A DNA stretch of 35,405 nt from a virus (UHGV-0379469); one strand, 5' to 3'; shown: positions 7,783 through 23,768, counted from the first letter of the stretch. Made by a program: numbers and translations. Notes: generated by a model not told the origin, from the letters alone.

Positions 7783-7939
7783 AGCTTCAGCCCCTTGTAT
7801 CCGTTAAATGATTCAGCAACAATCATCACCCACCACGCGCGTAATCTCACCCCTGCGCTATTCTCCCGCCACGGCGACAACAAAAAGCAGTAACCCCCTC
7901 CGCACGCACATGCGACCATGCCGCACAGGGAGGGAACAG

Positions 7940-9049
7940 ATGACCGACACCACCATGCAATTGCTCAGTCAGGGCACAGCCCCCGTGAAAATGCCGGATT
8001 TTGATATTCTCGCGGAGGGTAAAACGCTGTCAGGCGTGGCAGAGCGCCTGATGAGCCTGTCACTGACCGACAACCGGGGATTTGAGGCGGACCAGCTCAC
8101 CATCACGCTGGATGATGCGGATGGTCAGTTGCAGCTACCGCCACGGGGCGCGCGCCTGACGGTTCTCATTGGCTGGAAAGGAGAACCGCTGACAGAAAAA
8201 GGCACTTACATTGTTGATGAAATCGCTCACGAAGGACCGCCGGACAGGCTGACTGTTTCAGCCAGAAGCGCAGATTTTCGGGATGAATTTAACGTTAAAC
8301 GTGAGGTGTCCTGGCATGATGTGACCGTTGAGCGTGTGGTATCCGCCATCGCTCATCGGTATGGTCTGAAACCGCAAATCAGCGAAATGCTGATGGATAT
8401 CGAAATCGACCACGCCGACCAGACCGAAGAAAGCGACATGTCCTTCCTTACGCGCATGGCGGAAATGCTGGGCGCAATCACCACGGTAAAAAGCGGCAAT
8501 CTGTTATTCATCATGCCAGGTGGTGGCGTGAACGCGCAGGGCCAGCCGTTGCCCTCGTTCGCCATTACACGCAGCAGCGGCGATCGCCATCAGTTCCGCA
8601 TTGCTGACCGCGAGGCGTATACGGGGGTACGCGCTTACTGGCTTGATCTTAATTACGGGAAAAAGAAAAAAGTCAGCGTGAAACGCCGCAAACCGCCAAA
8701 ACCCAAAAAGGAGAAAAGCAGCAGCCGTGAAGGTGATTATATGGAAGGCGCGGAAGGCAATGTGTTTGTGTTACGCAAGACTTATCAGAACGAGCAGGCA
8801 GCAAGACGCGCAGCGGCGGCAAAGTGGCAGCAGCTACAACGCGGAGCTGCATCATTCTCCATCACGCTGGCGCGTGGACGTGCGGAACTCTACCCCGAAA
8901 TGCATGGCACGGTGACAGGCTTCAAAAGTGACATCGACAATCAGGACTGGATTATTGCAAAAGCCGAGCACACCATTGATAACAGCGGCTTTACCACGCA
9001 GCTTGAGCTTGAAGCAAAAATCCCGGAATGGATAGCAGAAACAGAGTGA
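7940..9049 (+). CDS. D: tail protein D (late control gene D family)
   Basis: ATG at 7940 preceded by AGGGAGGGAA; protein contains ...YTGVRAYWLD..., a Lys/Arg-rich linker and ...FSITLARGR...; ORF-track start 7808 rejected (upstream 44 codons are S/P/T/R-rich and lack an RBS). Confidence 0.8.
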   Translation: MTDTTMQLLSQGTAPVKMPDFDILAEGKTLSGVAERLMSLSLTDNRGFEADQLTITLDDADGQLQLPPRGARLTVLIGWKGEPLTEKGTYIVDEIAHEGPPDRLTVSARSADFRDEFNVKREVSWHDVTVERVVSAIAHRYGLKPQISEMLMDIEIDHADQTEESDMSFLTRMAEMLGAITTVKSGNLLFIMPGGGVNAQGQPLPSFAITRSSGDRHQFRIADREAYTGVRAYWLDLNYGKKKKVSVKRRKPPKPKKEKSSSREGDYMEGAEGNVFVLRKTYQNEQAARRAAAAKWQQLQRGAASFSITLARGRAELYPEMHGTVTGFKSDIDNQDWIIAKAEHTIDNSGFTTQLELEAKIPEWIAETE

Positions 9050-9169: not shown

Positions 9170-10192
9170 TTAATACGCATTTAATTTAAATTTGTATTTG
9201 CTTTCTATGTAATGGATAAATTCAATTATGCTTTTTTCTATCGCGTCTAATATATGAATATATCCATCCCGATTTAAGGTCCTATCCAACTCAAAATGAT
9301 GAACTATCCCATGTCTATATTGTATGATTTCAGAAATTCGATTCTCAAGGTAATCAACTGATTTTCCAATTCTTTTTTTCTTATAAAGAATCGCTCTCAC
9401 ATCTATATCTAGCCACTCTTTATATGCTTTGTTTAGGAGGGTTAAGTTTTGAAAAGTGTAATTTCTTGCAATAACACTTTCTATTGAAATATTTCCTTTC
9501 TCTATCTCAAGCAGAATATCAAAATCAACTTTTTGCTTATACGATGTTCTTTTTGCTATTGCGAAAGGATCGTACTTTATAAGTATTTGAAAAGCTCTAG
9601 AGAAAAAATATTCAAACATAGCAACCGCAAAAGGTACTAATCCATTATATATAACTCTACTGGGATCCATACATTGCATATCATCAAAGTATTCGGATAA
9701 GCCGCCATCTTCCGGCAGGTTTAATTTAATAGAAGGTTCAGGTAAGGCATGTTTAACAGCGGAAATCTCATGATGAACATGATTAAATATTGAAGAAATG
9801 CCACGACTGATCGGACTACTAGAATCCCCCCATAGAGGAGCGTATCTATTTTTCCCATAATCACCTATAAGTGTTCCACCAAAAAGACTCCTTGCGCCTT
9901 TTAGAACATCATTAAGCATTTTTACATCATGCCAACTAGCGCTAGATAAATTACGCACATGCAATGCCCATTTATTACCAGATATGTGTAGTTCGTCATT
10001 TGAAACAGGATATATATCAGCCGAAACTCCATCTGTAGATTTGAAGTCCGTATCATCAAACCAAGAGTAATTTAACGTTCCTTGGGGCCATTCCCACAAA
10101 TGTTTACACCTTTTAAAACCTAAATTTTCAAGATAATTTTTAAGTTCGTTTCTAGTTGCTTTTTTAGGGTACAGCGTTATATCTCTTCCCAT
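9170..10192 (-). CDS. hypothetical protein, AT-rich cargo gene; candidate anti-phage defence or abortive-infection protein
   Basis: 340-aa ORF with AGGTG RBS; much more AT-rich than the flanking phage genes; convergent with D and divergent from ogr; C-terminal RHGIVHH fits the Rx4-6H HEPN motif; no family recognised. Confidence 0.6.
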   Translation of the reverse strand: MGRDITLYPKKATRNELKNYLENLGFKRCKHLWEWPQGTLNYSWFDDTDFKSTDGVSADIYPVSNDELHISGNKWALHVRNLSSASWHDVKMLNDVLKGARSLFGGTLIGDYGKNRYAPLWGDSSSPISRGISSIFNHVHHEISAVKHALPEPSIKLNLPEDGGLSEYFDDMQCMDPSRVIYNGLVPFAVAMFEYFFSRAFQILIKYDPFAIAKRTSYKQKVDFDILLEIEKGNISIESVIARNYTFQNLTLLNKAYKEWLDIDVRAILYKKKRIGKSVDYLENRISEIIQYRHGIVHHFELDRTLNRDGYIHILDAIEKSIIEFIHYIESKYKFKLNAY

Positions 10193-10383: not shown

Positions 10384-10644
10384 ATGTTCCGTTGTCCGCT
10401 TTGTGGCGCATCTGCCCGTATCCGCACAAGTCGTCCGGAAAATGATTCAAACACCGTGCGGCAAAAGTATTACCAGTGTAACAATCTGGAATGCGGCGTA
10501 TGCTTCTCAACACTGGAAGCTTTCCATAAATTCACATCGAAACAAGCCTCCGGCGTTCACTCTTCAGAAGGTATCCCGTGGCATGAGCTGCCAGCTTCAC
10601 ACAGGGGAAACAATCAGATGAGTTTGCCTTTACCTCAGAATTAA
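10384..10644 (+). CDS. ogr: Ogr/Delta-type zinc-finger late-gene transcription activator
   Basis: MFRCPLCGASARIRTSR...YYQCNNLECGVCFST: four-Cys zinc finger in the Ogr arrangement; located after D as in P2. Confidence 0.85.
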   Translation: MFRCPLCGASARIRTSRPENDSNTVRQKYYQCNNLECGVCFSTLEAFHKFTSKQASGVHSSEGIPWHELPASHRGNNQMSLPLPQN

Positions 10645-11110: not shown

Positions 11111-11407
11111 ATGAGTGAAATGGTATTTTGTCGCGGATGCGGCAAGGAAATACATAAAGATGCCACATCCTGCCCCAATTGTGGAGCACCTCAAAGAACA
11201 GCAAGTTCAAAAAGCAGAATGACAGCCGCACTACTGGCTTTCTTTTTAGGTGGTCTTGGTGCACACAAATTTTATTTAGGTAAAGTGGGGCAAGGATTCC
11301 TTTACCTTATTTTTTGCTGGACATTCATTCCGGCAATCGTGGCATTTATTGAGTTTTTTATCTATCTATGCACCTCTGATGAAGATTTCGCCCGCAAATA
11401 TGGCTGA
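11111..11407 (+). CDS. zinc-ribbon + TM2-domain small membrane protein (cargo)
   Basis: N-terminal CxxC...CPNC zinc ribbon followed by two hydrophobic helices (LLAFFLGGLGAHKFYLG...) typical of TM2-domain proteins. Confidence 0.7.
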   Translation: MSEMVFCRGCGKEIHKDATSCPNCGAPQRTASSKSRMTAALLAFFLGGLGAHKFYLGKVGQGFLYLIFCWTFIPAIVAFIEFFIYLCTSDEDFARKYG

Positions 11408-11809: not shown

Positions 11810-12829
11810 TTAATCCCCCGTGGACACTGCGTGGACACTCACGCCACCTTTCAGCGGATTAAGGGCCACCGCATCCTGCAGGTAATCCGGTGCAAAATGT
11901 GCATATGCCATTGTTTGCTGAATGGTTGCGTGGCCAAGAATCTTCTGAAGCGCAATAATGTTTCCTCCGTTCATCACAAAATGGCTGGCGAACGTATGCC
12001 GCAGCACATGTGCAGCCTGGCCTTTTGGCAAATCGGGCTTAACTCTTTTCAGCGCCAAGCAGAATTCCCGGTACTTCACCTCAAACAAGCCGCCTGTTTC
12101 TCTGGTTTTGATCGCCTCACAAACTGCCTGCGAAATTGGCACTGTTCTCTTTCGGCCATTTTTGGTTTCAAGAAACGTTACACGGTTATGAACTATCTGT
12201 TCACCACGAAGCTTACAGGCTTCACTCCAGCGCGCCCCCGTGCTTAAACACAAAAGCGCAACACGCCAGTAATCGCCCTCCAGTGTATCGAGCAATAACG
12301 CCACTTCCTTCTGGGACAGGAAAGCCATTTCTCGTGGAGATACATAAAGAATAGAAATTCCCCTTACCGGATGTTCTGCATCCCAGAGGCCTATTTTCTT
12401 CAGTACGGTAAACATTCCGGATAACCGATTCATGTATCTGTTAGCAGATGACGGTTTCAATCCATCAGCTATCTTTTGAGAACGCCACGCGATAATTTTT
12501 AGCTTATCAAGATCCACAGCCTGCATATCAGCGCCAAGCTCATTGATTATGTTGCGCAGTTGTTTTCGGTCTTCTTCCGCCTTACGCCTGTGCTGGCCGT
12601 GATACATCCACCACAACTCAAGCAAATCATTTAGCGTTCGACGATCACGGTAGCCCTGTATATATTCCCGCTTTTCAGCGTTCGCCATGATGTAGCGTTC
12701 AGTGGCCACCGCTACCGATTTTTTGTCAAATACCTTACGCACGCGCTTTCCCTTGCGTCCGTTCGGCCTGATGTCCAGCAAATAACGACCATCTTCGAGC
12801 TTCTTAATCGACATTGCGAAGCCCTCCAA
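11810..12829 (-). CDS. int: tyrosine integrase (P2 Int-like)
   Basis: 339-aa ORF; C-terminal catalytic region ...HVLRHTFASHF...LGHATIQQTMAYAHFAPDY with the R..H..R..Y signature. Confidence 0.9.
   Translation of the reverse strand: MEGFAMSIKKLEDGRYLLDIRPNGRKGKRVRKVFDKKSVAVATERYIMANAEKREYIQGYRDRRTLNDLLELWWMYHGQHRRKAEEDRKQLRNIINELGADMQAVDLDKLKIIAWRSQKIADGLKPSSANRYMNRLSGMFTVLKKIGLWDAEHPVRGISILYVSPREMAFLSQKEVALLLDTLEGDYWRVALLCLSTGARWSEACKLRGEQIVHNRVTFLETKNGRKRTVPISQAVCEAIKTRETGGLFEVKYREFCLALKRVKPDLPKGQAAHVLRHTFASHFVMNGGNIIALQKILGHATIQQTMAYAHFAPDYLQDAVALNPLKGGVSVHAVSTGD
11820..11838 (+). repeat. putative integrase arm-type binding site (dimeric direct repeat), overlaps int 3' end
   Basis: GTGGACActgcGTGGACAc; encodes ...VSVHAVST of Int. 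Confidence 0.5.
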
Positions 12830-12910: not shown

Positions 12911-13231
12911 TCAGCGGGATAATTTTTGGATTGTTTCGGTTGAAACACGATCTCCCTCCGAATTGCAGGAACCATCAAGAGAGAGAGCCGGAGAAATTTG
13001 CCCAACCTCCGGCATCGTTTCATCTGTTGATAACCAATAAGCATATTTCTTAAATTTAGGGTGTTTCGTAACCTTAAGTAAGGCACCCTCTGTTACTTGC
13101 TTCCCCCTCACCTCATAGTTAGTTACCGTCCCATAAGGCAGCCCAACACAATCCGCAAACTCCTGGCGGGTCATACCTTCTGCTTCACGAATCAGGCGAA
13201 ATTTTTCACCCATGCTTGACAAAGATGCCAT
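12911..13231 (-). CDS. C: immunity repressor, P2 C-type (HTH)
   Basis: HTH segment MTRQEFADCVGLPYGTVTNYE and ...QISPAL... match the P2 C layout as recalled; start taken at MASLSS (alternative in-frame starts up to 13285). Confidence 0.75.
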   Translation of the reverse strand: MASLSSMGEKFRLIREAEGMTRQEFADCVGLPYGTVTNYEVRGKQVTEGALLKVTKHPKFKKYAYWLSTDETMPEVGQISPALSLDGSCNSEGDRVSTETIQKLSR

Positions 13232-13290
13232 ATCGGGCATATCCTCCATCGCAACATGCCACATCGGGCACAAACATAAAAACACTCAAA

Positions 13291-13344: not shown

Positions 13345-13632
13345 ATGAGCGAATCAGAGCTTGGGGGCTTCATTCAGGTAGCACCATATCCACTTGAAGC
13401 GGTGCCATATCAACTATTCGCCAAGATGATCGGCCGCAAGGAATCCACAGTCAGAACCATGATTGACGCAGCAAAGCTACCGACAATTGACTTTGTGAAA
13501 CCAGGTTCAGTAAAGACGCGTGCATCAGAAAACTGGGTATATCTGCCAGCATTTAACGAAGGCATGCGCAAAGCGTTTTTTGAGCAACCGAAAGAACGCC
13601 GCGATGCATGGTTGTTGTGGCTGGGGCTTTAG
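13345..13632 (+). CDS. cox: Cox-like excisionase / transcriptional regulator
   Basis: ...PYQLFAKMIGRKESTVRTMIDAAKLP...WVYLPAFN...WLLWLGL matches P2 Cox as recalled; first gene of the early operon, divergent from C. Confidence 0.75.
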   Translation: MSESELGGFIQVAPYPLEAVPYQLFAKMIGRKESTVRTMIDAAKLPTIDFVKPGSVKTRASENWVYLPAFNEGMRKAFFEQPKERRDAWLLWLGL

Positions 13633-16718: not shown

Positions 16719-16949
16719 ATGGCAAACCGCAAACAACAGCGCGCATACGCTGCGCGTCGTCACATCCAGACTGAAATCAACCGTAGACTTTTCCGCGCAT
16801 CACGCGTCGCGCAAATCATGCACATCAATATGCTGCATGAGCGCAGCCACGCGCTATCGAACATCTATTCCGCCTCTGTTTTCAGCTATCTGGCGGATGA
16901 TCTGCGCGAGCTGCAACAACTCTTCCAGCAGCAAAACAAACTCCATTAA
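16719..16949 (+). CDS. hypothetical protein
   Basis: 76-aa ORF with AAGAGG RBS 8 nt upstream. Confidence 0.5.
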   Translation: MANRKQQRAYAARRHIQTEINRRLFRASRVAQIMHINMLHERSHALSNIYSASVFSYLADDLRELQQLFQQQNKLH

Positions 16950-17021: not shown

Positions 17022-17411
17022 ATGATTGACGCTCATGACTTCACAAGATGGGTGCGCACACAGGACACCCGTCTGGCTCCCGTTCTTCAGGGATTATTTG
17101 ATCTCTACATCCGTGGTCGTGACAACAGAGCACGCACCACAAAACCGGAGAATGCAGACACCCTTTATTTCACAGTAGACGACTGCTACCGCGTGGACTT
17201 CACACCACACGGGCTGGCGTTGCACTGCCTGACACCACACGGAGAATCACTGCTGGCGTATTACGACTCCCCGGCCTCCGTATTTGCGGCAATGCTGGCG
17301 CATCGCACTGCTGGCGGGTGTGCCTCGCTGAGTGAATACACCGCTGAATTTAACCGCCTTTCTGCCCTCTTCTCGCAGGAGTGGCAGCGCGTGACGGGAT
17401 ACCAGCCATGA
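17022..17411 (+). CDS. hypothetical protein preceding the replication gene
   Basis: 129-aa ORF; its stop overlaps the A start (ATGA). Confidence 0.5.
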   Translation: MIDAHDFTRWVRTQDTRLAPVLQGLFDLYIRGRDNRARTTKPENADTLYFTVDDCYRVDFTPHGLALHCLTPHGESLLAYYDSPASVFAAMLAHRTAGGCASLSEYTAEFNRLSALFSQEWQRVTGYQP

Positions 17412-20248
17412 ATGAGTTTGCATGGAGCTGGAATGAACCACGGCCAGCCATTGATCCGGCCAGATTTACGGAGCACAGGCAGGAAACTGAAACCGACCTG
17501 CAACGCGCCATCCGTTACTACCTTGAGGCAGACAAAAAGGCTCTGGAAGAACAGGAAGCGAAGGAGGAAGCCTTTTTCGCACAATCCACCGTGGGTAAAA
17601 AACTCATGGCATCCCTTGAGGAAGCCGGACAGCGTGAAAAGCTGGCACAAAGCATCATCAGCAAGCGTCAGGCAACAGAACAAGACCCGGTGGCCCGTGC
17701 TTTTGCCACACTGAAGGTGCTTCCCGTTTATCTGCGTGAACCTCTGAGCCGCCACCTCTCTTTCCTGCGCAAAAAACAGGAAGCCGATCGCCAGAAAGGC
17801 AAAAAGAGCTGGCAGGCTGAACGCTACGCGCGCGGAACCCTGCGCAAAATATTCGAACGCCTGGACCGCACCGACCACCGCTGGCTGACACCGGGTTATC
17901 GCTCCCTTGCCGGACGCGAACGCCTGGATGATTTGCTTTACCTGCCGCAGCTCAACAAGCACCAGATACAGACGCTGGCCACCATGACGGCGGCGATGTT
18001 CAGCAGCACCTTCGAAAAACTCTGCGATGGCTTTGGCGCGACCGATGGTGAGCTGACCATGGAGGTGGCACTGAAGGCGTATCAGATGCTGGCCCGCATG
18101 GCGTTACACCTGCACGCCATGCCTCCACATTATGACGCACTGACAACAGACAAAGACCGCAAGAACGAACCGGACACGGAACTGCTGCCGGGCGCAATCC
18201 TCCGCCTGACCTGTGCGGAATGGTGGAAACGCAAACTGTGGCTGTTACGTTGCGAGTGGCGGGAAGAACAACTCCGCGCCGCCTGTCTGGTTTCCAGAAA
18301 AACATCGCCCTATCTGAGCCAGGACGCGTTAAGCGAGTTTCGCGCACAGCGCGAGAAAACACGCGATTTCCTGAAAAGTTTCATGCTGGAAAACGAAGAC
18401 GGGTTCACGATTGATCTCGAGACGGTGTATTACGCGGGAGTAAGTAACCCGGTCCACCGTAAAGCAGAAATGATGGCCACCATGAAGGGGCTGGAACTTC
18501 TGGCCGAAGCCCGTGGCGACAGAGCGGTGTTTCTGACTGTCACCTGCCCGTCAAAATACCACGCCACAACAGAGAACGGTCATCCGAATCCCAAATGGAA
18601 CGGGGCCACCATGCGCGACTCCAGCGATTACCTGGTTAACACGTTTTTTGCGGCGGTCCGCAAAAAACTGAACCGCGATGGCCTGCGCTGGTATGGCATC
18701 CGCACGGTGGAGCCTCACCATGACGGCACCGTGCACTGGCATATGATGGTCTTTGCACATCCGGACGAGATTGAAACCATCGTGTCCCATGTCTGCGATA
18801 TTGCCATTCAGGAAGACCGCCACGAGCTGGGCGATGACATAACTCCGCGTTTTAAGGCTGAGTACGTAGACGGCTCAAAAGGCACGCCAACCAGCTACAT
18901 CGCCACCTACATCGGAAAGAACCTGGACAGCCGCGCCGTGGATGGCATCGACCCGAAAACGGGCAAGCCACGCGTTGACCACGAAACCGGAAAATCAATG
19001 GCAGAGAGCGTGGAACGCGCCATCGGCTGGGCGCGCCTTCACCGGGTCCGCCAGTTCCAGTTCTTTGGCATTCCCTCTCGTCAGGTATGGCGTGAACTCC
19101 GCCGCCTTGCCAGCCAGATGGCACGCAACCCGGAAGGCCCACAACGGCTGAAGGATGATGCAATGGATGCGGTACTCGCTGCCGCTGATGCCGGGTGTTT
19201 TGCCACCTACATTGAGAAACAGGGCGGCGTACTTGTTCCACGCAAAGACTACCTGATTCGCACCGCCTACGACCTCGCAGATGAGCTGAACGATTACGGC
19301 GAACAGAGCGTACAGATTTACGGGATCTGGTCACCACTCATCGGGGAGTCTTCCCGTGTGTGCACACATCCGGATAACTGGAAGCTGGTAAGACGTAAAC
19401 CGGAAGCGGAAGACAGCGCCCGCGAAAATGGTTTTGACCTTCAGGGCGGCCCTGCCGCCCCTTGGACTCGTGGCAATAACTGTCCCCGTGTACAGGAAAC
19501 AGACAACAACGGGACAGAACAGCCGGAAGAACGGCCAGCACCGTGGCCGCAGCTTCCTGACGGCGTTGACGTGAACGAATGGGTGCGCTCACTGAAACGG
19601 CACGAACGCCGGGCGCTGATGCGTTCGCTGCGTGACAAACAGGCAAAAAACAGCAGTGATGAAATGCAGAACTGGACACAGAGCCGCAAACAGCCACAGC
19701 CTTTGCCTGATAACCACGAATTACTCGCTAAAGAATGGCGGGAGTCTGCTGAATCTCTCGGCCTGCATATCGGTGAACAGCAGATGCAGCACCTGTTACG
19801 GGGCGGCAGTCTGTACGTTGACGGCAGCATCATTGCACCGCAGGGATTTGAAATTGTACGCAAACCGGATACCCGCCCGGACAGCCGAATCACGCAGCTC
19901 TGGCAACGCCTGAGCCGTAACCACGGCGTAAGCAGCACGGAGATCCGCCATAACCCAGTCGCCAGCTATCTGGAACAACTAGGGGCATCAGACCCTGAAG
20001 CCGCCGCACGCCTGGCATCCACACTTCAGCAAGACCAGAACACCATGAAAACACCCGTTACCGTACTTTCTGACATGCTGCGCGCCATCCGCGACGCAGA
20101 GCACGAACAGAGAATCAGTGAAACAACTGAACGCGCCCGCCGCAAAGCAGACCTGCTGCGGGGTGACCTGACCAGTGGAAACAAAAAACAGACAGAAACG
20201 GGATTCACAAATCCCGTAAATGAGCAAAAAACGCGCCGCGAAATATGA
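17408..20248 (+). CDS. A: replication initiation protein A (HUH rolling-circle endonuclease)
   Basis: HUH motif ...GTVHWHMMVFAH... and catalytic Tyr motif ...TSYIATYIGKN...; about 946 aa, longer than P2 gpA as I recall it (761 aa). Confidence 0.85.
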   Translation: MNEFAWSWNEPRPAIDPARFTEHRQETETDLQRAIRYYLEADKKALEEQEAKEEAFFAQSTVGKKLMASLEEAGQREKLAQSIISKRQATEQDPVARAFATLKVLPVYLREPLSRHLSFLRKKQEADRQKGKKSWQAERYARGTLRKIFERLDRTDHRWLTPGYRSLAGRERLDDLLYLPQLNKHQIQTLATMTAAMFSSTFEKLCDGFGATDGELTMEVALKAYQMLARMALHLHAMPPHYDALTTDKDRKNEPDTELLPGAILRLTCAEWWKRKLWLLRCEWREEQLRAACLVSRKTSPYLSQDALSEFRAQREKTRDFLKSFMLENEDGFTIDLETVYYAGVSNPVHRKAEMMATMKGLELLAEARGDRAVFLTVTCPSKYHATTENGHPNPKWNGATMRDSSDYLVNTFFAAVRKKLNRDGLRWYGIRTVEPHHDGTVHWHMMVFAHPDEIETIVSHVCDIAIQEDRHELGDDITPRFKAEYVDGSKGTPTSYIATYIGKNLDSRAVDGIDPKTGKPRVDHETGKSMAESVERAIGWARLHRVRQFQFFGIPSRQVWRELRRLASQMARNPEGPQRLKDDAMDAVLAAADAGCFATYIEKQGGVLVPRKDYLIRTAYDLADELNDYGEQSVQIYGIWSPLIGESSRVCTHPDNWKLVRRKPEAEDSARENGFDLQGGPAAPWTRGNNCPRVQETDNNGTEQPEERPAPWPQLPDGVDVNEWVRSLKRHERRALMRSLRDKQAKNSSDEMQNWTQSRKQPQPLPDNHELLAKEWRESAESLGLHIGEQQMQHLLRGGSLYVDGSIIAPQGFEIVRKPDTRPDSRITQLWQRLSRNHGVSSTEIRHNPVASYLEQLGASDPEAAARLASTLQQDQNTMKTPVTVLSDMLRAIRDAEHEQRISETTERARRKADLLRGDLTSGNKKQTETGFTNPVNEQKTRREI

Positions 20249-20293
20249 AGTGCGCACAAAACAGGCAAAAGCGGGATTTCAGAATCCCGTAAA
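20199..20293. repeat. two 22-bp palindromic iterons 73 bp apart, upstream of parM
   Basis: CGGGATTcacaaATCCCGTAAA (20199..20220, inside the 3' end of A) and CGGGATTtcagaATCCCGTAAA (20272..20293, intergenic); each an interrupted GGGATT/AATCCC palindrome. Confidence 0.6.
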
Positions 20294-20324
20294 CGGTTAA
20301 TTAATCAACATAAGGAAAATCGAC

Positions 20325-21284
20325 ATGAAAATTTGTATCGACGACGGCTCCACCAACATCAAGCTGGCATGGACTGAGAACGGCGAACGCCGCAACGCCA
20401 TCAGCCCGAACAGCTTCAAGTCGGAATGGTCTGCGCCGTTCGGTGGCACGCAGCCCGCGAACTACATGCTTGATAGCGTGCGCTATGGTTTTGATCCGGT
20501 CAGCGATCGCTTTGTCCAGACGACTGACACGCAATATCAGTACAGTGATGTGAATGTCATTGCCATTCATCACGCGCTGGTCAAATCAGGCATCACGCCA
20601 CAGGAGGTGGATGTGGTTGTCACCCTGCCACTGAGCGAGTATTTCGACACAAACGCACAGCCGGACATGGCCAACATCAACCGCAAAAAAGCGAACGTTA
20701 TGCGCCCGGTGGAATACCAGAACGGCGAAGCATTCACTATCCGTAATGTACGGGTTATGCCTGAATCCATTCCGGCTGGCTTTAAGGCACTGGCTGACAT
20801 GAGTCCGTTTGAATCCCTGCTGATTGTGGATTTAGGCGGAACCACGCTGGATGTGGCAAAGGTTCAGGGACAACTGGCAGGTATCAGCCAGGTGTTTTGC
20901 GATCCACACGTAGGCGTTTCCCTGATGGCCGATGCCGTACTGTCGGTGATGGCCACTAACGGTATGCGTACCAGTCACCACATCGCCAATACCATTATTG
21001 AGCACCGTCACGATGAAGCCTGGCTGCGCCAGCACATTCACAATGACGCGCATTACAACAGCCTGATGGCGGTTATTCGTGAAAAGGAGGAGACACTGAA
21101 ACAACGAGTGATCCGCGCGCTGGCGGGTTTTTCCGGTTACGGGCGGGTGATGGTTGTCGGTGGAGGGGCGGAGATTGTGGCACCCGCTATCCGCGAAGCC
21201 TGCGGAGTTAATGCGACTTTCATCGCGGACGGGGTGCCACAATTTGCTCTGGTTAATGGGCTGTACGCAATGAACAAGGAGTAA
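20325..21284 (+). CDS. parM: ParM/StbA actin-like partition ATPase
   Basis: MKICIDDGSTNIKLAW... N-terminus and ...DLGGTTLD..., ...VMVVGGGAE..., ...LVNGLYAM motifs aligning with plasmid R1 ParM as recalled. Confidence 0.8.
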   Translation: MKICIDDGSTNIKLAWTENGERRNAISPNSFKSEWSAPFGGTQPANYMLDSVRYGFDPVSDRFVQTTDTQYQYSDVNVIAIHHALVKSGITPQEVDVVVTLPLSEYFDTNAQPDMANINRKKANVMRPVEYQNGEAFTIRNVRVMPESIPAGFKALADMSPFESLLIVDLGGTTLDVAKVQGQLAGISQVFCDPHVGVSLMADAVLSVMATNGMRTSHHIANTIIEHRHDEAWLRQHIHNDAHYNSLMAVIREKEETLKQRVIRALAGFSGYGRVMVVGGGAEIVAPAIREACGVNATFIADGVPQFALVNGLYAMNKE

Positions 21285-21288
21285 ACCA

Positions 21289-21600
21289 ATGACGACACCA
21301 ACCAGAAGAATAAGTTTCTATCTGAAGCCAGCTGCCGTCAAGAACGAAGGAGAAGCATGCGCCTGGCTGGACAGCCTTACACCAGAAGCCCGCAAAAGCG
21401 GCCAACGCGTGGCTTTTCTGGCCGGGCTGGCACTTCTGAAGACGAATCCGGCAGAGGCTTACCGACTGGCCGCATGGGCTGATGATGAGATGTTACCTGT
21501 GACACAAATCAGCTCAAAAAAGTTTGAAGCACAGTCTGCACCAGTGGCTAAGATAACCAGCCAGATGGCTGGGAATATCCGGGCGTTATTTCCTGAGTAA
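21289..21600 (+). CDS. parR: ParR/StbB-like partition adaptor (DNA-binding)
   Basis: 103 aa directly after parM; RRISFYLKP...LAGLALL...RALFPE pattern resembles ParR. Confidence 0.6.
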   Translation: MTTPTRRISFYLKPAAVKNEGEACAWLDSLTPEARKSGQRVAFLAGLALLKTNPAEAYRLAAWADDEMLPVTQISSKKFEAQSAPVAKITSQMAGNIRALFPE

Positions 21601-21728
21601 AAGCATCTGCACGAAAAATGCTCACGTTTATAGAAACAGTATCATTCCATTTGGCACACTTACTTCAATAATCGATCTGTTAAACAAATAGATTGTCTAT
21701 TATCTATCGATTAAAACGATCAATTATC

Positions 21729-21757
21729 TTGACAGTAATGTGCCTTTTTGTAAGATC
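21729..21757 (+). promoter_or_regulatory. sigma70-like promoter candidate bracketed by an 11-bp inverted repeat
   Basis: TTGACA, 16-nt spacer, TAAGAT; flanked by CAATTATCTTG (21721..21731) and its reverse complement (21775..21785). Confidence 0.35.
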
Positions 21758-21964
21758 GTTCGCATTGTGAGCGACAAGATAATTGCGCGGCATTGTCCAT
21801 GCAAAACGCCCCAATAGCAGCAACTATTGGGGCGTAAAACTCGGTCGGACTCACTTAACCTGATATGCGTGCCTTCCGAAGTAAATCAAAATGTGCGTCG
21901 TATATTTTATTGCTTACACGCACCTCTGTAAAGGCACGCATATTTTTCCTATGAGGTAAATAAA

Positions 21965-22234
21965 GTGCGGGCTAAAACAGGTATTTGCAAGAACCCTCAT
22001 CGTTATAACCCAACATTTCTGTCTCTCCCTGAATATCAAGGACAAGAAGGTCGGCACAAATGCGCTGCCTGTGCTTTTGAGCTAGGCATAAAAGATGCGC
22101 TTGAAGGACGCGCTATGGCTCAGAATGATTTAGTTTTAGCTAACATTCCGTTTAGCCAGGCTGGAACTGTAAGGCACAGAGATGCCTATGAAGCATATGT
22201 TCGTGGTTGGCGATTAATACACAGCAACAATTGA
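21965..22234 (+). CDS. hypothetical protein (hotspot cargo; GTG start)
   Basis: 89-aa ORF followed by a strong intrinsic terminator; no family recognised. Confidence 0.4.
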   Translation: MRAKTGICKNPHRYNPTFLSLPEYQGQEGRHKCAACAFELGIKDALEGRAMAQNDLVLANIPFSQAGTVRHRDAYEAYVRGWRLIHSNN

Positions 22235-22242
22235 TACTTTTG

Positions 22243-22268
22243 AAGCGCCGATAAGGCGCTTTTTTTTG
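22243..22268 (+). terminator. rho-independent terminator
   Basis: AAGCGCC gataa GGCGCTT stem-loop followed by T8. Confidence 0.7.
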
Positions 22269-22720
22269 TTTGCACGATAGTGCACAAGTTTGCACAATTT
22301 TTTTGAACGACTTTTTGTACTTCCGGCCCGCATGGCGGCTGGATCCGTCAAGGATCCGTGCGTGCACAAAAAAATGCGTTTTTTCTGCGCGCAGGTGACG
22401 GGGGAACAGCCCGCGTTTCAGGGGGTAAATAGCATTCCCTGAACGATGTCGCAGCGACACAACAGAATGGCTGTATTTCTCACACTGAGCGTGAAAAAGA
22501 CGTGAGGGCTTTTGATTTGATGGGGTGACAGACAAGGCCGTCAAAATCGCACTGAGGCGGCGAGAACATGCAGTCAACGCGGTGGGATTGCGTAAGAGTC
22601 TGACTGTCGATGATGGCAATAAGCAGGAAAGCGTCGTGAAATTATCTGATTGATACAAGAGCTGGAGAGTCGGGGCATAAATTTTTTATGCCCCGGCGAA
22701 GCAGCAGACAAGCGAAGCGC
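22268..22720. other. probable cos / packaging region (not pinpointed)
   Basis: Noncoding tract at the 3' end of Q, where P2-type phages carry cos; three TGCAC motifs phased at 10 bp (22271, 22281, 22291), GGATCCGT direct repeat, stem-loop at 22670..22694. Confidence 0.3.
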
Positions 22721-22721
22721 G

Positions 22722-23768
22722 TCAGGATGTGGGCTGGGTGTCCAGCAGTGCGTAAGGGTTAAAGCGGATCACCTCTTCGCCAAGCCAGTCATTGATGTGC
22801 TTCATGGCCTCCATGACGGGCATCAGCTCGTTAATTGCGTAAACCCGCGCGGCCTTCTCCACATCACCAAACGCACTTTTTTCGCCCGGCATCGCCCCCA
22901 TCAGTTGCGGCGGAACGCGGTGCGCAGCCAGCACATCATCACGGGATGCCGCCTTAACATTCATGAACTCATCCTTTGCGGTGATCTGCTGGAACGGCAA
23001 AATTTGCACCCCCTCTTTGCCCCCGTTGGGCGCATGGATGAGCACGTTTTTAAACGCACCACCACCACGCGCACCCTGTAACGTTTCTTTCAGGGAGTCC
23101 ATGCTTTCGCGGTTTACCTGCGCTGCACCGATGTAGATGATGCACCCGGCGTGGGATCCATTGTCGTAGTACAGTTTTCTGAACATGTCCGCCGAATGAG
23201 ACAGGCTGGCCGAGAGTAATGCGCCAAGATATTCCGGCATGCCGTAAATTTCCTGGTTAATGTCCGGATTCATCAGGTGGCACACTTTGCCAGGGCGAAA
23301 CTGAAACGCGTCCTTGCCATCCTGCACATACCACCATGACTCAAGATCGCTTCCGCGTCGCATGTATTTCGCCAGGGCGTGCCGTAATTTAAGCGGCTCG
23401 CCGAGCATATTGCTCCGAAGCTCAAGGAATGCGTTACCGAACACAAACCAGTCCAGCGCCAGCGCCGAGAAATCCTGCCGGGAAAGCAGCGGGTGCGGGA
23501 TGTAGCAACCCAGCAACACATTGCGCTTAAAGTAAAGCGCAGACTGATGCCAGGACGTTTGCCGGGCAGCTCTTGCCAGACCGTACCAGTCCACCGGGGT
23601 TTCATACCACCGCCCGTTATCAGCACAGTACATATTGTCCAGCAGGTCATGCCCGGTCAGGCGATAAGGACCATCAAATGTGAATGCACTGAGCGACGAT
23701 TCTTTCCTGAGCGCATCAGCGAGATCAATGCGTGAACTCATGCGCACTTTTTTATTTTTTCTGCTCAT
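22722..23768 (-). CDS. Q: portal protein Q
   Basis: 348-aa ORF downstream of and overlapping (ATGA) the large terminase gene; size and position as P2 gpQ. Confidence 0.85.
   Translation of the reverse strand: MSRKNKKVRMSSRIDLADALRKESSLSAFTFDGPYRLTGHDLLDNMYCADNGRWYETPVDWYGLARAARQTSWHQSALYFKRNVLLGCYIPHPLLSRQDFSALALDWFVFGNAFLELRSNMLGEPLKLRHALAKYMRRGSDLESWWYVQDGKDAFQFRPGKVCHLMNPDINQEIYGMPEYLGALLSASLSHSADMFRKLYYDNGSHAGCIIYIGAAQVNRESMDSLKETLQGARGGGAFKNVLIHAPNGGKEGVQILPFQQITAKDEFMNVKAASRDDVLAAHRVPPQLMGAMPGEKSAFGDVEKAARVYAINELMPVMEAMKHINDWLGEEVIRFNPYALLDTQPTS

What the first reader, a model, noticed from the sequence alone, without database searches (positions are those of the whole stretch)
20199..21600. 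ParM/ParR actin-type partition locus with palindromic iterons: phage-plasmid potential alongside int/attP
Immediately after replication gene A lie two 22-bp interrupted palindromes (CGGGATT-N5-AATCCCGTAAA) 73 bp apart, then parM and a small parR-like gene. This is the layout of a type II plasmid segregation system with its centromere/operator upstream. The position corresponds to the variable region between A and the cos/Q end of P2-like phages. Together with an intact int and attP it suggests the element can persist both integrated and as a partitioned plasmid.
Basis: partly seen in the sequence, partly recalled or inferred. Interest (0 to 1): 0.7.

Follow-up and report, generated by a model that had tools for sequence, protein, structure and literature searches.

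The report
ParM/ParR partition cassette in P2-like phage
A plasmid-style actin DNA-segregation cassette (ParM, ParR and two upstream binding-site palindromes) sits after the replication gene of this P88/P2-like phage; it is real, conserved and already annotated, relatives are almost always integrated prophages, and its job in the phage is untested.

Summary
Window 20199-21600 carries two CGGGATT-N4-AATCCCG palindromes 73 bp apart. They are followed by a true ParM (R1 ParM, E 6e-92) and a true ParR (PF10784; pB171 ParR 2jd3, E 2e-14).

Two corrections: the loop is N4, not N5, and the first palindrome lies inside the 3' end of gene A.

The window is a complete P88-like (Xuanwuvirus) genome. The cassette is annotated in RefSeq and occurs in 1304 of 5426 complete E. 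coli genomes. Rousset et al. 2022 already noted it and speculated on plasmid maintenance, so it is not new.

New here:
- All P2-like-context ParMs examined (five genera, down to 53% identity) form one clade with the same A-parM-parR-cargo-portal order.
- parM is under strong purifying selection (dN/dS 0.06).
- A GGGW-N8-WCCC pair about 73 bp apart sits at the same position in E. coli, Plesiomonas and Hafnia phages.

The phage-plasmid reading is poorly supported:
- 1450 of 1452 copies are chromosomal.
- 0 of 413 genomes keep an intact attP.
- No plasmid replicon was found.
- One 34-kb circular record is the only exception.

My best guess is that the cassette moves circular phage DNA during replication, as AlpAC does in prophage CGP3.

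The parts
17381..20248 (+). Replication gene A (gpA, 955 aa). This is context: its 3' end contains repeat unit 1.
   Evidence: Pfam Phage_GPA 1e-129. The same 14 phage records carry this A type and parMR.
20182..20220 (.). Repeat unit 1 (39 nt) with palindrome CGGGATTCACAAATCCCG at 20199-20216. Proposed ParR site (parC-like), inside the gpA coding end.
   Evidence: D3. GGGW-N8-WCCC sits at -125 from the parM ATG, and at -131 and -128 in the Plesiomonas and Hafnia relatives.
20255..20293 (.). Repeat unit 2 (39 nt) with palindrome CGGGATTTCAGAATCCCG at 20272-20289. Proposed ParR site and operator, intergenic.
   Evidence: -52 here; -59 and -55 in the relatives. Variants across 86 relatives keep the GGAT...ATCC core.
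20297..20317 (+). Conserved TTAATTAATCAA box (20297-20308) and Shine-Dalgarno AAGGAA (20312-20317) ahead of parM. A weak promoter may overlap unit 2 (read by eye, unverified).
   Evidence: Invariant in 5 phages. A similar ATTAATCAA...AAGG is seen in Plesiomonas and Hafnia. The strict sigma-70 scan found no promoter here.
20325..21284 (+). parM, the actin-fold ATPase (319 aa).
   Evidence: phosphate-1 DDGST, E147, DLGGTT and GGGA are invariant. Intact in 81 of 82 relatives, with median dN/dS 0.058.
21289..21600 (+). parR, the adaptor (103 aa). It has an N-terminal RRISFYLKP strand plus helices, a hypervariable linker and a C-terminal NIRALFPE tail.
   Evidence: PF10784 1e-23. Profile hit to 2jd3 at 2.3e-14. 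Invariant N- and C-terminal motifs. Intact in 81 of 81 relatives.

Best explanation
This is a complete, functional type II (ParMRC-type) DNA-segregation cassette. It is a vertically inherited part of one lineage of integrative P2-like phages (P88/Xuanwuvirus and relatives in Plesiomonas, Hafnia, Serratia and Enterobacter).

Proposed mechanism. ParR dimers bind the two GGGW-N8-WCCC palindromes through the N-terminal strand. The palindromes are 73 bp apart, about 7 helical turns, so both face the same side of the DNA. Binding also represses a weak promoter that overlaps unit 2. The conserved ParR C-terminal tail captures the ends of ATP-ParM filaments, and filament growth pushes the DNA molecules that carry the sites apart.

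Proposed role. The cassette follows the replication gene on the same strand with no terminator between them, and the element is almost always integrated. I therefore infer that it acts on extrachromosomal circular phage genomes while they replicate, after infection or induction. It would disperse or position the circles for replication and packaging, as the AlpC/AlpA actin system does for prophage CGP3. I do not think it maintains a stable plasmid lysogen.

Shown: homology, motif conservation, synteny, purifying selection, site conservation and the integrated state of relatives.
Inferred: ParR-site binding, autoregulation, timing of expression and the role in replication.
For: - ParM and ParR homology.
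- ATPase motifs invariant down to 53% identity.
- parM intact in 81 of 82 close relatives, median dN/dS 0.058; parR intact in 81 of 81.
- ParR keeps its N-terminal strand and C-terminal N-I-x-x-[LFM]-F-P tail while the linker varies freely. R1-type ParR ends in KKNAMKLIN.
- Same gpA-parM-parR-variable cargo-portal order in Plesiomonas, Hafnia, Serratia and Enterobacter prophages.
- All P2-like-context ParMs form one clade, apart from R1-type, D6 and ICE or integrated-plasmid ParMs, in an NJ tree without support values.
- The GGGW-N8-WCCC pair sits at -125/-52, -131/-59 and -128/-55 in three genera and is rare elsewhere in those loci.
- ParR strand type tracks site type. TRR(I/V)SFYL goes with the palindrome pair. 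NRKISFYL (Serratia, Enterobacter) goes with a different long inverted repeat. KKVMIYL (D6) goes with TCTCA repeats. RRTIAFKL (R1-type) goes with AAACCCA direct iterons..
- No plus-strand terminator between gpA and parM.
- The P88-type gpA and parMR occur in the same 14 of 14 phage records.
- Integrated state.
- Precedent for a prophage actin plus adaptor needed for efficient phage DNA replication: PMC4446434.
- From my own knowledge, not checked here: P2 replicates by a modified rolling circle that yields monomeric double-stranded circles, which are the packaging substrate.
Against: - There is no experimental or expression data for this cassette.
- P2 and 186 replicate well without it.
- Only two sites (four half-sites) are present, against ten iterons in R1 parC, so they might serve as an operator only.
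- The promoter is weak and not detected by the strict scan.
- The site-strand correlation follows phylogeny, so it is not independent evidence.
- Within E. coli, ParR allele families do not covary with site variants.
- The AlphaFold model of ParR was poor (pLDDT 57), so the ribbon-helix-helix fold rests on homology to 2jd3.
- One circular 34-kb record shows that an extrachromosomal form can be assembled.
Confidence: 0.5

Rival explanations
1. Dual lifestyle. The phage can persist either integrated or as a low-copy plasmid prophage, and ParMRC stabilises the plasmid form.
For: - The cassette is homologous to genuine plasmid partition systems.
- Phage-plasmid D6 (P1-like) carries a StbA-type ParM/ParR at 48% identity.
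- NZ_CP148288.1 is a 34,461-bp circular 'plasmid' made of a whole phage of this type, with attP intact and an identical integrase.
- The idea was voiced in PMC9122126.
Against: - 1450 of 1452 copies in complete E. coli genomes are chromosomal.
- 0 of 413 genomes have an intact attP.
- Another 'plasmid' hit is a prophage among chromosomal genes.
- No plasmid-type Rep was found. The only initiator is gpA, in the repressor-controlled early operon.
- Integrase, repressor and cox are all intact.
- The circular record has frameshifts in portal, sheath, tape measure, D and C. It may be a noisy assembly of induced phage DNA.
Confidence: 0.15
2. Accessory hot-spot cargo that acts in the lysogen. Examples would be ParR/parC-based incompatibility or interference with resident plasmids or related incoming phages, or another host-level effect, with no role in the phage's own cycle.
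For: - The locus lies in the gpA-gpQ hot spot that holds defence systems (PMC9122126).
- Phage half-sites (AATCCC, and AAACCCA in Hafnia) resemble R1-type iterons (AAACCCA).
- ParR alleles diversify strongly in E. coli.
Against: - Unlike true hot-spot cargo, the cassette is not swapped. It is monophyletic and syntenic across five genera.
- Homology between relatives ends exactly at the parR stop codon, where the variable cargo starts.
- There are no PADLOC matches.
- It is strictly linked with the P88-type gpA.
Confidence: 0.12
3. The palindromes are not ParR sites. They would be RNA hairpins or processing signals between A and parM, a terminator for the opposite strand, or part of the replication origin.
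For: - As RNA the region folds far better than shuffles (z -4.25).
- The minus-strand scan flags both palindromes as terminator-like.
- The common CCCG-to-CCTG variant would keep a G-U pair.
- From my own knowledge: the P2 origin lies inside gene A.
Against: - In Plesiomonas and Hafnia only GGGW-N8-WCCC, its position and its spacing are kept, not a stable stem.
- CAGG variants break pairing without compensation.
- In Hafnia the first site lies in a different upstream gene, so the sites travel with parMR and not with A.
- No minus-strand gene ends here.
- No Rfam match was found.
- A separate 50-nt patch in gpA (19442-19491), conserved across many P2-like phages, is a better origin candidate.
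Confidence: 0.1

Closest known systems
ParMRC (parA/stb locus) of plasmid R1, and pB171 par1 (StbA/StbB)
   Same: - ParM gives an end-to-end HMMER alignment with R1 ParM (1mwk, E 6e-92; the closest plasmid ParMs are 46-52% identical by tblastn), and all ATPase motifs are present.
- ParR is homologous to pB171 ParR (2jd3).
- Gene order is sites, then parM, then parR, with the repeats upstream.
- The C-terminal ParR tail motif is similar.
   Different: - It sits in an integrative P2-like phage, not on a plasmid.
- The centromere-like region is two 18-bp palindromes 73 bp apart, one of them inside the upstream gene. R1-type parC instead has ten direct 11-bp iterons.
- The phage ParMs form their own clade.
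AlpC/AlpA/alpS of Corynebacterium glutamicum prophage CGP3
   Same: An integrated prophage encodes an actin-like ATPase and a co-transcribed DNA-binding adaptor, with sites upstream of the operon. In CGP3 the system links circular phage DNA to filaments and is needed for efficient phage replication (PMC4446434; PMC5539076).
   Different: I tested no sequence relationship. AlpC is a distant actin-like protein and the gene order is alpA-alpC. The function of the P88 cassette is untested, so this is a comparison of how it may work, not a claim of membership.
Phage-plasmid D6 (P1-like) StbA/ParR module
   Same: A tailed phage carries a StbA-type ParM (48% identical) followed by a ParR-like gene, with upstream repeats.
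   Different: D6 is a 91-kb plasmid prophage of P1 type. Its ParR strand (KKVMIYL) and its repeats (TCTCA-type) both differ. Its ParM falls with plasmid ParMs and not in the P2-like clade.
'Putative plasmid partitioning system' of the P2 gpA-gpQ hot spot (Rousset et al. 2022)
   Same: I take this to be the same object. It was reported in about a quarter of E. coli P2-like phages, with the same speculation about plasmid maintenance. I did not check gene-level identity against their Table S5.
   Different: It was treated there as one of many hot-spot systems. Here it behaves as a conserved backbone block next to the variable cargo, not as swapped cargo.

Membership tests
Type II (ParMRC) partition system | Actin-fold ATPase of the ParM/StbA family | tested here: met
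   StbA_N 8e-82 and the ParM C-terminal domain 1e-68. R1 ParM 1mwk at E 6e-92 over residues 2-316.
Type II (ParMRC) partition system | Nucleotide-binding and hydrolysis motifs (phosphate-1 DDGST..K, catalytic Glu, phosphate-2 DLGGTT, adenosine GGGA) | tested here: met
   They align with the R1 motifs. D6, D7, G8, S9, T10, K13, E147, D169-T174 and G279-A282 are invariant across 9 phage-clade ParMs.
Type II (ParMRC) partition system | Small ParR adaptor encoded directly downstream, with a ribbon-helix-helix N-terminal domain | tested here: inconclusive
   Homology is met: PF10784 at 1e-23 and a profile hit to pB171 ParR 2jd3 at 2.3e-14. The fold was not confirmed independently: the AlphaFold monomer had pLDDT 57 and the N-terminal strand was not modelled.
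Type II (ParMRC) partition system | ParR C-terminal peptide that binds ParM | not testable with these tools
   The C-terminal N-I-x-x-[LFM]-F-P motif is invariant across alleles despite a hypervariable linker. R1-type ParR ends in KKNAMKLIN. Binding itself needs an experiment.
Type II (ParMRC) partition system | Centromere parC: repeated ParR sites upstream of parM that overlap its promoter | tested here: inconclusive
   Repeats are present, non-random and positionally conserved in three genera. The architecture differs from R1. No clear promoter was found. Binding is untested.
Type II (ParMRC) partition system | Resides on, and stabilises, an autonomously replicating low-copy replicon | tested here: not met
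   1450 of 1452 copies are chromosomal. 0 of 413 genomes have an intact attP. One circular 34-kb record is the exception. Stabilisation itself cannot be tested here.
Phage-plasmid | Plasmid-type replication module alongside the phage genes | tested here: not met
   Pfam scans of the early operon find only gpA (a rolling-circle initiator) and no Rep family.
Phage-plasmid | Found as an extrachromosomal replicon in lysogens | tested here: not met
   The single exception is NZ_CP148288.1, which has many frameshifts.
AlpAC-type prophage actin system (function only) | Early induction on excision, and a requirement for efficient phage DNA replication | not testable with these tools
   The only indirect support is position: directly downstream of gpA on the same strand with no terminator between them.

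The most novel reading that the evidence does not exclude
An entire lineage of integrative P2-like phages has kept, since before the divergence of its Escherichia, Hafnia, Plesiomonas, Serratia and Enterobacter members, an actin-type DNA-pushing machine with a minimal two-palindrome centromere. The lineage would use it in the phage's own replication cycle, to separate or position the monomeric circular genomes that P2-type replication produces, rather than for plasmid inheritance. That would make ParMRC a phage replication and packaging accessory in Gram-negative bacteria.
Probability: 0.35. Interest if true: 0.6.

Novelty: already known. Interest (0 to 1): 0.33.

Why it matters
About a quarter of complete E. 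coli genomes carry this cassette. It is routinely labelled 'plasmid segregation protein' although it sits in a chromosomal prophage, and nobody appears to have tested what it does there.

If it works on replicating phage circles, it would be the Gram-negative counterpart of the CGP3 AlpAC system. It would also explain why a plasmid machine is fixed in an integrative phage lineage.

If it supports an episomal state instead, P88-like phages would be an unrecognised, very common class of facultative phage-plasmids.

In practice, a ParM/ParR annotation should not be used as evidence that a contig is a plasmid.

Tried and rejected
- Palindromes as replication origin or RNA element. This is unlikely: cross-genus conservation is of GGGW-N8-WCCC and its spacing, not of a stem, and there is no Rfam hit.
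- Defence-system reading. There were no PADLOC matches for ParM, ParR or the neighbouring cargo ORFs.
- Covariation of ParR allele family (103 vs 104 aa) with palindrome variants in 79 E. coli-type loci. None was found, and ParM has no fixed differences between the two groups.
- AlphaFold model of ParR from 21 sequences. Confidence was too low (pLDDT 57) to use for fold search, so I ran none.
- 'Escherichia phage 520873' looked like a separate replicon. It is a cut-out prophage with host flanks and an IS100 insertion.
- The genome-contig scan returned only 25 loci because the peptide patterns were narrow. The viral-contig scan returned only relatives at 98-100% identity.
- Literature searches with word-start matching of 'ParM' gave false hits such as Parma and parmentieri.
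- I could not retrieve a source for P2's circular-monomer packaging. That point rests on my own knowledge.
- I could not walk the rest of the 32-kb Plesiomonas contig to test whether it is circular.
Full report
**What the window is**

The window is a complete, excised genome of a P2-like phage. Reading along it:
- tail genes and gpD (7808-9049)
- an Ogr/Delta zinc-finger gene (10384-10644)
- a tyrosine integrase (11810-12829, minus strand)
- a C-type repressor (12911-13285, minus strand)
- cox (13345-13632)
- an early operon ending in gpA (17381-20248; Phage_GPA 1e-129)
- the two genes of the finding
- about 1.1 kb of unrelated sequence
- portal Q (22722-23768, minus strand) and terminase P

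Megablast places it in the P88 group (Xuanwuvirus, Peduoviridae). P88, phiSM, P884B11 and others are 94-97% identical over 20100-21700.

**Checking the observation**

CGGGATTNNNNAATCCCG occurs exactly twice in the window, at 20199-20216 and 20272-20289. None of 100 shuffles reached two matches. The two copies are the cores of 39-nt direct repeats (79% identical) that are 73 bp apart (D3).

Two details of the finding need correction:
- The loop is 4 nt, not 5.
- The first copy lies within the last 50 nt of the gpA ORF rather than after it.

parM (20325-21284) matches Pfam StbA_N at 8e-82 and the ParM C-terminal domain at 1e-68. It aligns over its whole length with R1 ParM (1mwk, E 6e-92). The phosphate-1, catalytic Glu, phosphate-2 (DLGGTT) and adenosine (GGGA) motifs are all in place, and they are invariant in nine phage-clade homologues down to 53% identity.

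The 103-aa gene (21289-21600) matches PF10784 at 1e-23. A profile of it and its relatives hits pB171 ParR/StbB (2jd3) at E 2.3e-14. An AlphaFold model was too uncertain to add anything (pLDDT 57).

The refutation criterion 'no actin-fold ATPase motifs' is therefore not met. The locus is a genuine ParM/ParR pair.

**Is it known?**

Yes.
- The genes are annotated 'plasmid segregation protein ParM' and 'plasmid partitioning/stability family protein' in RefSeq prophages and in P88 and phiSM.
- PHROGs has families for both proteins.
- The locus is present in 1304 of 5426 complete E. coli genomes.
- Rousset et al. [quoted passage not shown]
- The phiSM paper only lists the gene as a 'fitness' factor (PMC6456863).

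I found no functional study in the searchable library.

**Cargo or backbone?**

Homology among P88-like phages runs through gpA, the repeats, parM and parR. For most relatives it stops exactly at the parR stop codon (query position 1501 = window 21600). Beyond that point each phage carries different genes. The variable hot spot therefore begins after parR.

The phage records that carry this gpA type are exactly the 14 that carry parMR.

ParM homologues at intermediate identity lie in the same order, gpA-(0-2 genes)-parM-parR-cargo-portal, in four further genera:
- Plesiomonas, 63%
- Hafnia, 62%
- Serratia, 58%
- Enterobacter, 53%

Homologues at 49-50% identity lie in an ICE (Dickeya) and an integrated plasmid (Mangrovibacter).

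In an NJ tree without support values, all ParMs from P2-like contexts form one clade. R1-type, D6 and the ICE or integrated-plasmid ParMs fall outside it.

Among 82 close relatives, parM is intact in 81, with a median pairwise dN/dS of 0.058. parR is intact in all 81 in which it could be read.

This pattern fits a long-held, selected phage gene set. It does not fit a recent passenger.

**The cis sites**

Among 86 close relatives the two sites vary a little: CCCG to CCTG in about a fifth, CGGG to CAGG in a few, and loop changes. The GGAT...ATCC core and the 73-bp spacing hold.

The cross-genus comparison is more telling:

| Phage host | GGGW-N8-WCCC positions relative to the parM ATG | Other matches in the locus |
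|---|---|---|
| E. coli (window, 35 kb) | -125 and -52 | 2 |
| Plesiomonas (13 kb) | -131 and -59 | 1 |
| Hafnia (13 kb) | -128 and -55 | 0 |

In Hafnia the first site lies in a different upstream gene. The sites therefore travel with parMR, not with gpA.

ParR strand type tracks site type:

| ParR N-terminal strand | Source | Upstream sites |
|---|---|---|
| TRR(I/V)SFYLKP | E. coli, Plesiomonas, Hafnia phages | GGGW-N8-WCCC pair |
| NRKISFYLKP | Serratia, Enterobacter phages | long inverted repeat (GGGAAC..ATAGAAAAAT) |
| KKVMIYL | phage D6 | TCTCA-type repeats |
| RRTIAFKL | R1-type plasmid | direct 11-bp AAACCCA iterons |

This fits ParR-site co-evolution, but it follows the phylogeny, so it is not independent proof.

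Within E. coli the two ParR allele families (103 and 104 aa) share the first 18 residues and do not covary with site variants.

ParR keeps its N-terminal strand and helices and a C-terminal N-I-x-x-[LFM]-F-P tail, while the linker is hypervariable. That is the expected layout for a DNA-binding domain, a flexible linker and a ParM-binding peptide. R1-type ParR ends in KKNAMKLIN.

**Alternative readings of the palindromes**

- As RNA the region folds unusually well (z -4.25), and the minus-strand scan calls both palindromes terminator-like.
- Against these readings, the Plesiomonas and Hafnia versions do not keep stable stems, the CAGG variants are uncompensated, and no Rfam family matches.
- A separate 50-nt patch inside gpA (19442-19491) is about 90% conserved in about 70 otherwise unalignable P2-like phages. 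It is a better candidate for the origin, which in P2 lies within gene A (my own knowledge).

**Plasmid or not?**

- Of 1452 copies in complete E. coli genomes, 1450 are on chromosomes.
- A 1.3-kb probe across attP is split at about 11608 in every one of the 413 genomes with this integrase type, often next to pdxB. None has the intact junction.
- 'Phage 520873' is a cut-out prophage with host flanks.
- The Salmonella 'plasmid' hit is a prophage beside pheA among ribosomal and aromatic-pathway genes.
- The early operon contains no plasmid-type Rep. The only initiator, gpA, sits in the operon that the immunity repressor controls in P2-like phages. It is therefore hard to see how a repressed genome would replicate as a plasmid.
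- In favour of an episome there is one record, NZ_CP148288.1. It is a 34,461-bp circle with the whole phage, an identical integrase and an intact attP. It has frameshifts in portal, sheath, tape measure, D and C. These look like assembly noise, and the record may simply be induced phage DNA.

**Most likely function**

The cassette follows gpA on the same strand with no terminator between them. I therefore expect it to be made together with the replication proteins.

P2-type replication produces monomeric circles that are the packaging substrate (my own knowledge; I could not retrieve a source). Those circles are plasmid-like targets for a ParMRC machine.

The nearest functional precedent is prophage CGP3. 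Its actin-like AlpC and adaptor AlpA bind sites upstream of their operon, attach circular phage DNA to filaments, are induced early, and are needed for efficient phage replication (PMC4446434).

I therefore favour a role in moving or separating replicating phage circles after infection or induction (confidence about 0.5). I keep the facultative-plasmid idea at about 0.15. The remaining probability goes to a lysogen-level accessory or incompatibility function, or to the sites having another role.

**Verdict**

What remains open, and modestly interesting, is why an integrative phage lineage has conserved a plasmid segregation machine, and whether its two-palindrome site is a working centromere.

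Noticed in passing
window 21601-22721: This is the variable hot-spot cargo between the parR stop and the portal gene; homology to relatives ends exactly at 21600. It holds a sigma-70-like promoter (TTGACA-16-TAAGAT, 21729-21756), a perfect 12-bp-stem hairpin (21806-21835), a perfect 13-nt inverted repeat (21863-21875 / 21931-21943) and an 89-aa Cys-containing ORF (21965-22234, phrog_3941, unknown function) followed by a terminator at 22242-22262. There were no PADLOC hits.
   Followed up: partly
window 19442-19491 (inside gpA): A patch of about 50 nt is about 90% conserved in about 70 P2-like phages of Klebsiella, Salmonella, Yersinia and E. coli whose A genes otherwise do not match by megablast. 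It is a candidate replication origin or nick site, by analogy with P2, whose origin lies inside gene A.
   Followed up: no
window 9170-10192 (-): A 340-aa ORF lies between gpD and ogr, with a sub-threshold RiboL-PSP HEPN match (E 1.8e-4, 21.9 bits against a cut-off of 28.4). It has no PADLOC or PHROGs family. It may be uncharacterised defence or toxin cargo in the second P2 variable locus.
   Followed up: partly
window 11111-11407 (+): A 98-aa zinc-ribbon plus TM2-domain membrane protein lies next to attP (TM2 5.5e-19). It differs from the cargo at the same place in NZ_CP148288.1, which carries a methyltransferase, Com and Hok.
   Followed up: no
window ~11608: This is the attP break point. 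In all integrated relatives the match to the integrase side starts at window 11608. Several are integrated next to pdxB.
   Followed up: partly
window 21343 (codon ~18 of parR): This is a recombination boundary. About a fifth of relatives carry a 104-aa ParR allele family that is only about 55% identical after residue 18, while parM and the upstream sites stay 96-99% identical. The ParR linker is hypervariable, with 49 protein variants in 81 loci.
   Followed up: partly
L118 (NZ_CP148288.1, whole record): This 34,461-bp circular 'plasmid' is a complete phage of this type with an intact attP. It has frameshifts in portal, sheath, tape measure, gpD and the C repressor. It is either a noisy assembly of induced phage DNA or a defective episomal phage.
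   Followed up: partly
window 17381-20248 and 16719-16949: gpA is 955 aa, longer than the ~761 aa I recall for P2 A (not checked with tools). Relatives range from 785 to 955 aa, so the C-terminal part is variable. A 'Derepression protein' family gene (PF25738, 1.4e-7) sits upstream in the early operon.
   Followed up: no
L006 (Plesiomonas contig WEKF01000002.1, 32,167 bp): The contig is phage-sized and ends about 140 bp beyond the integrase gene, close to the expected att site. This pattern is expected if excised and integrated forms coexist in the culture. The rest of the contig could not be fetched.
   Followed up: no
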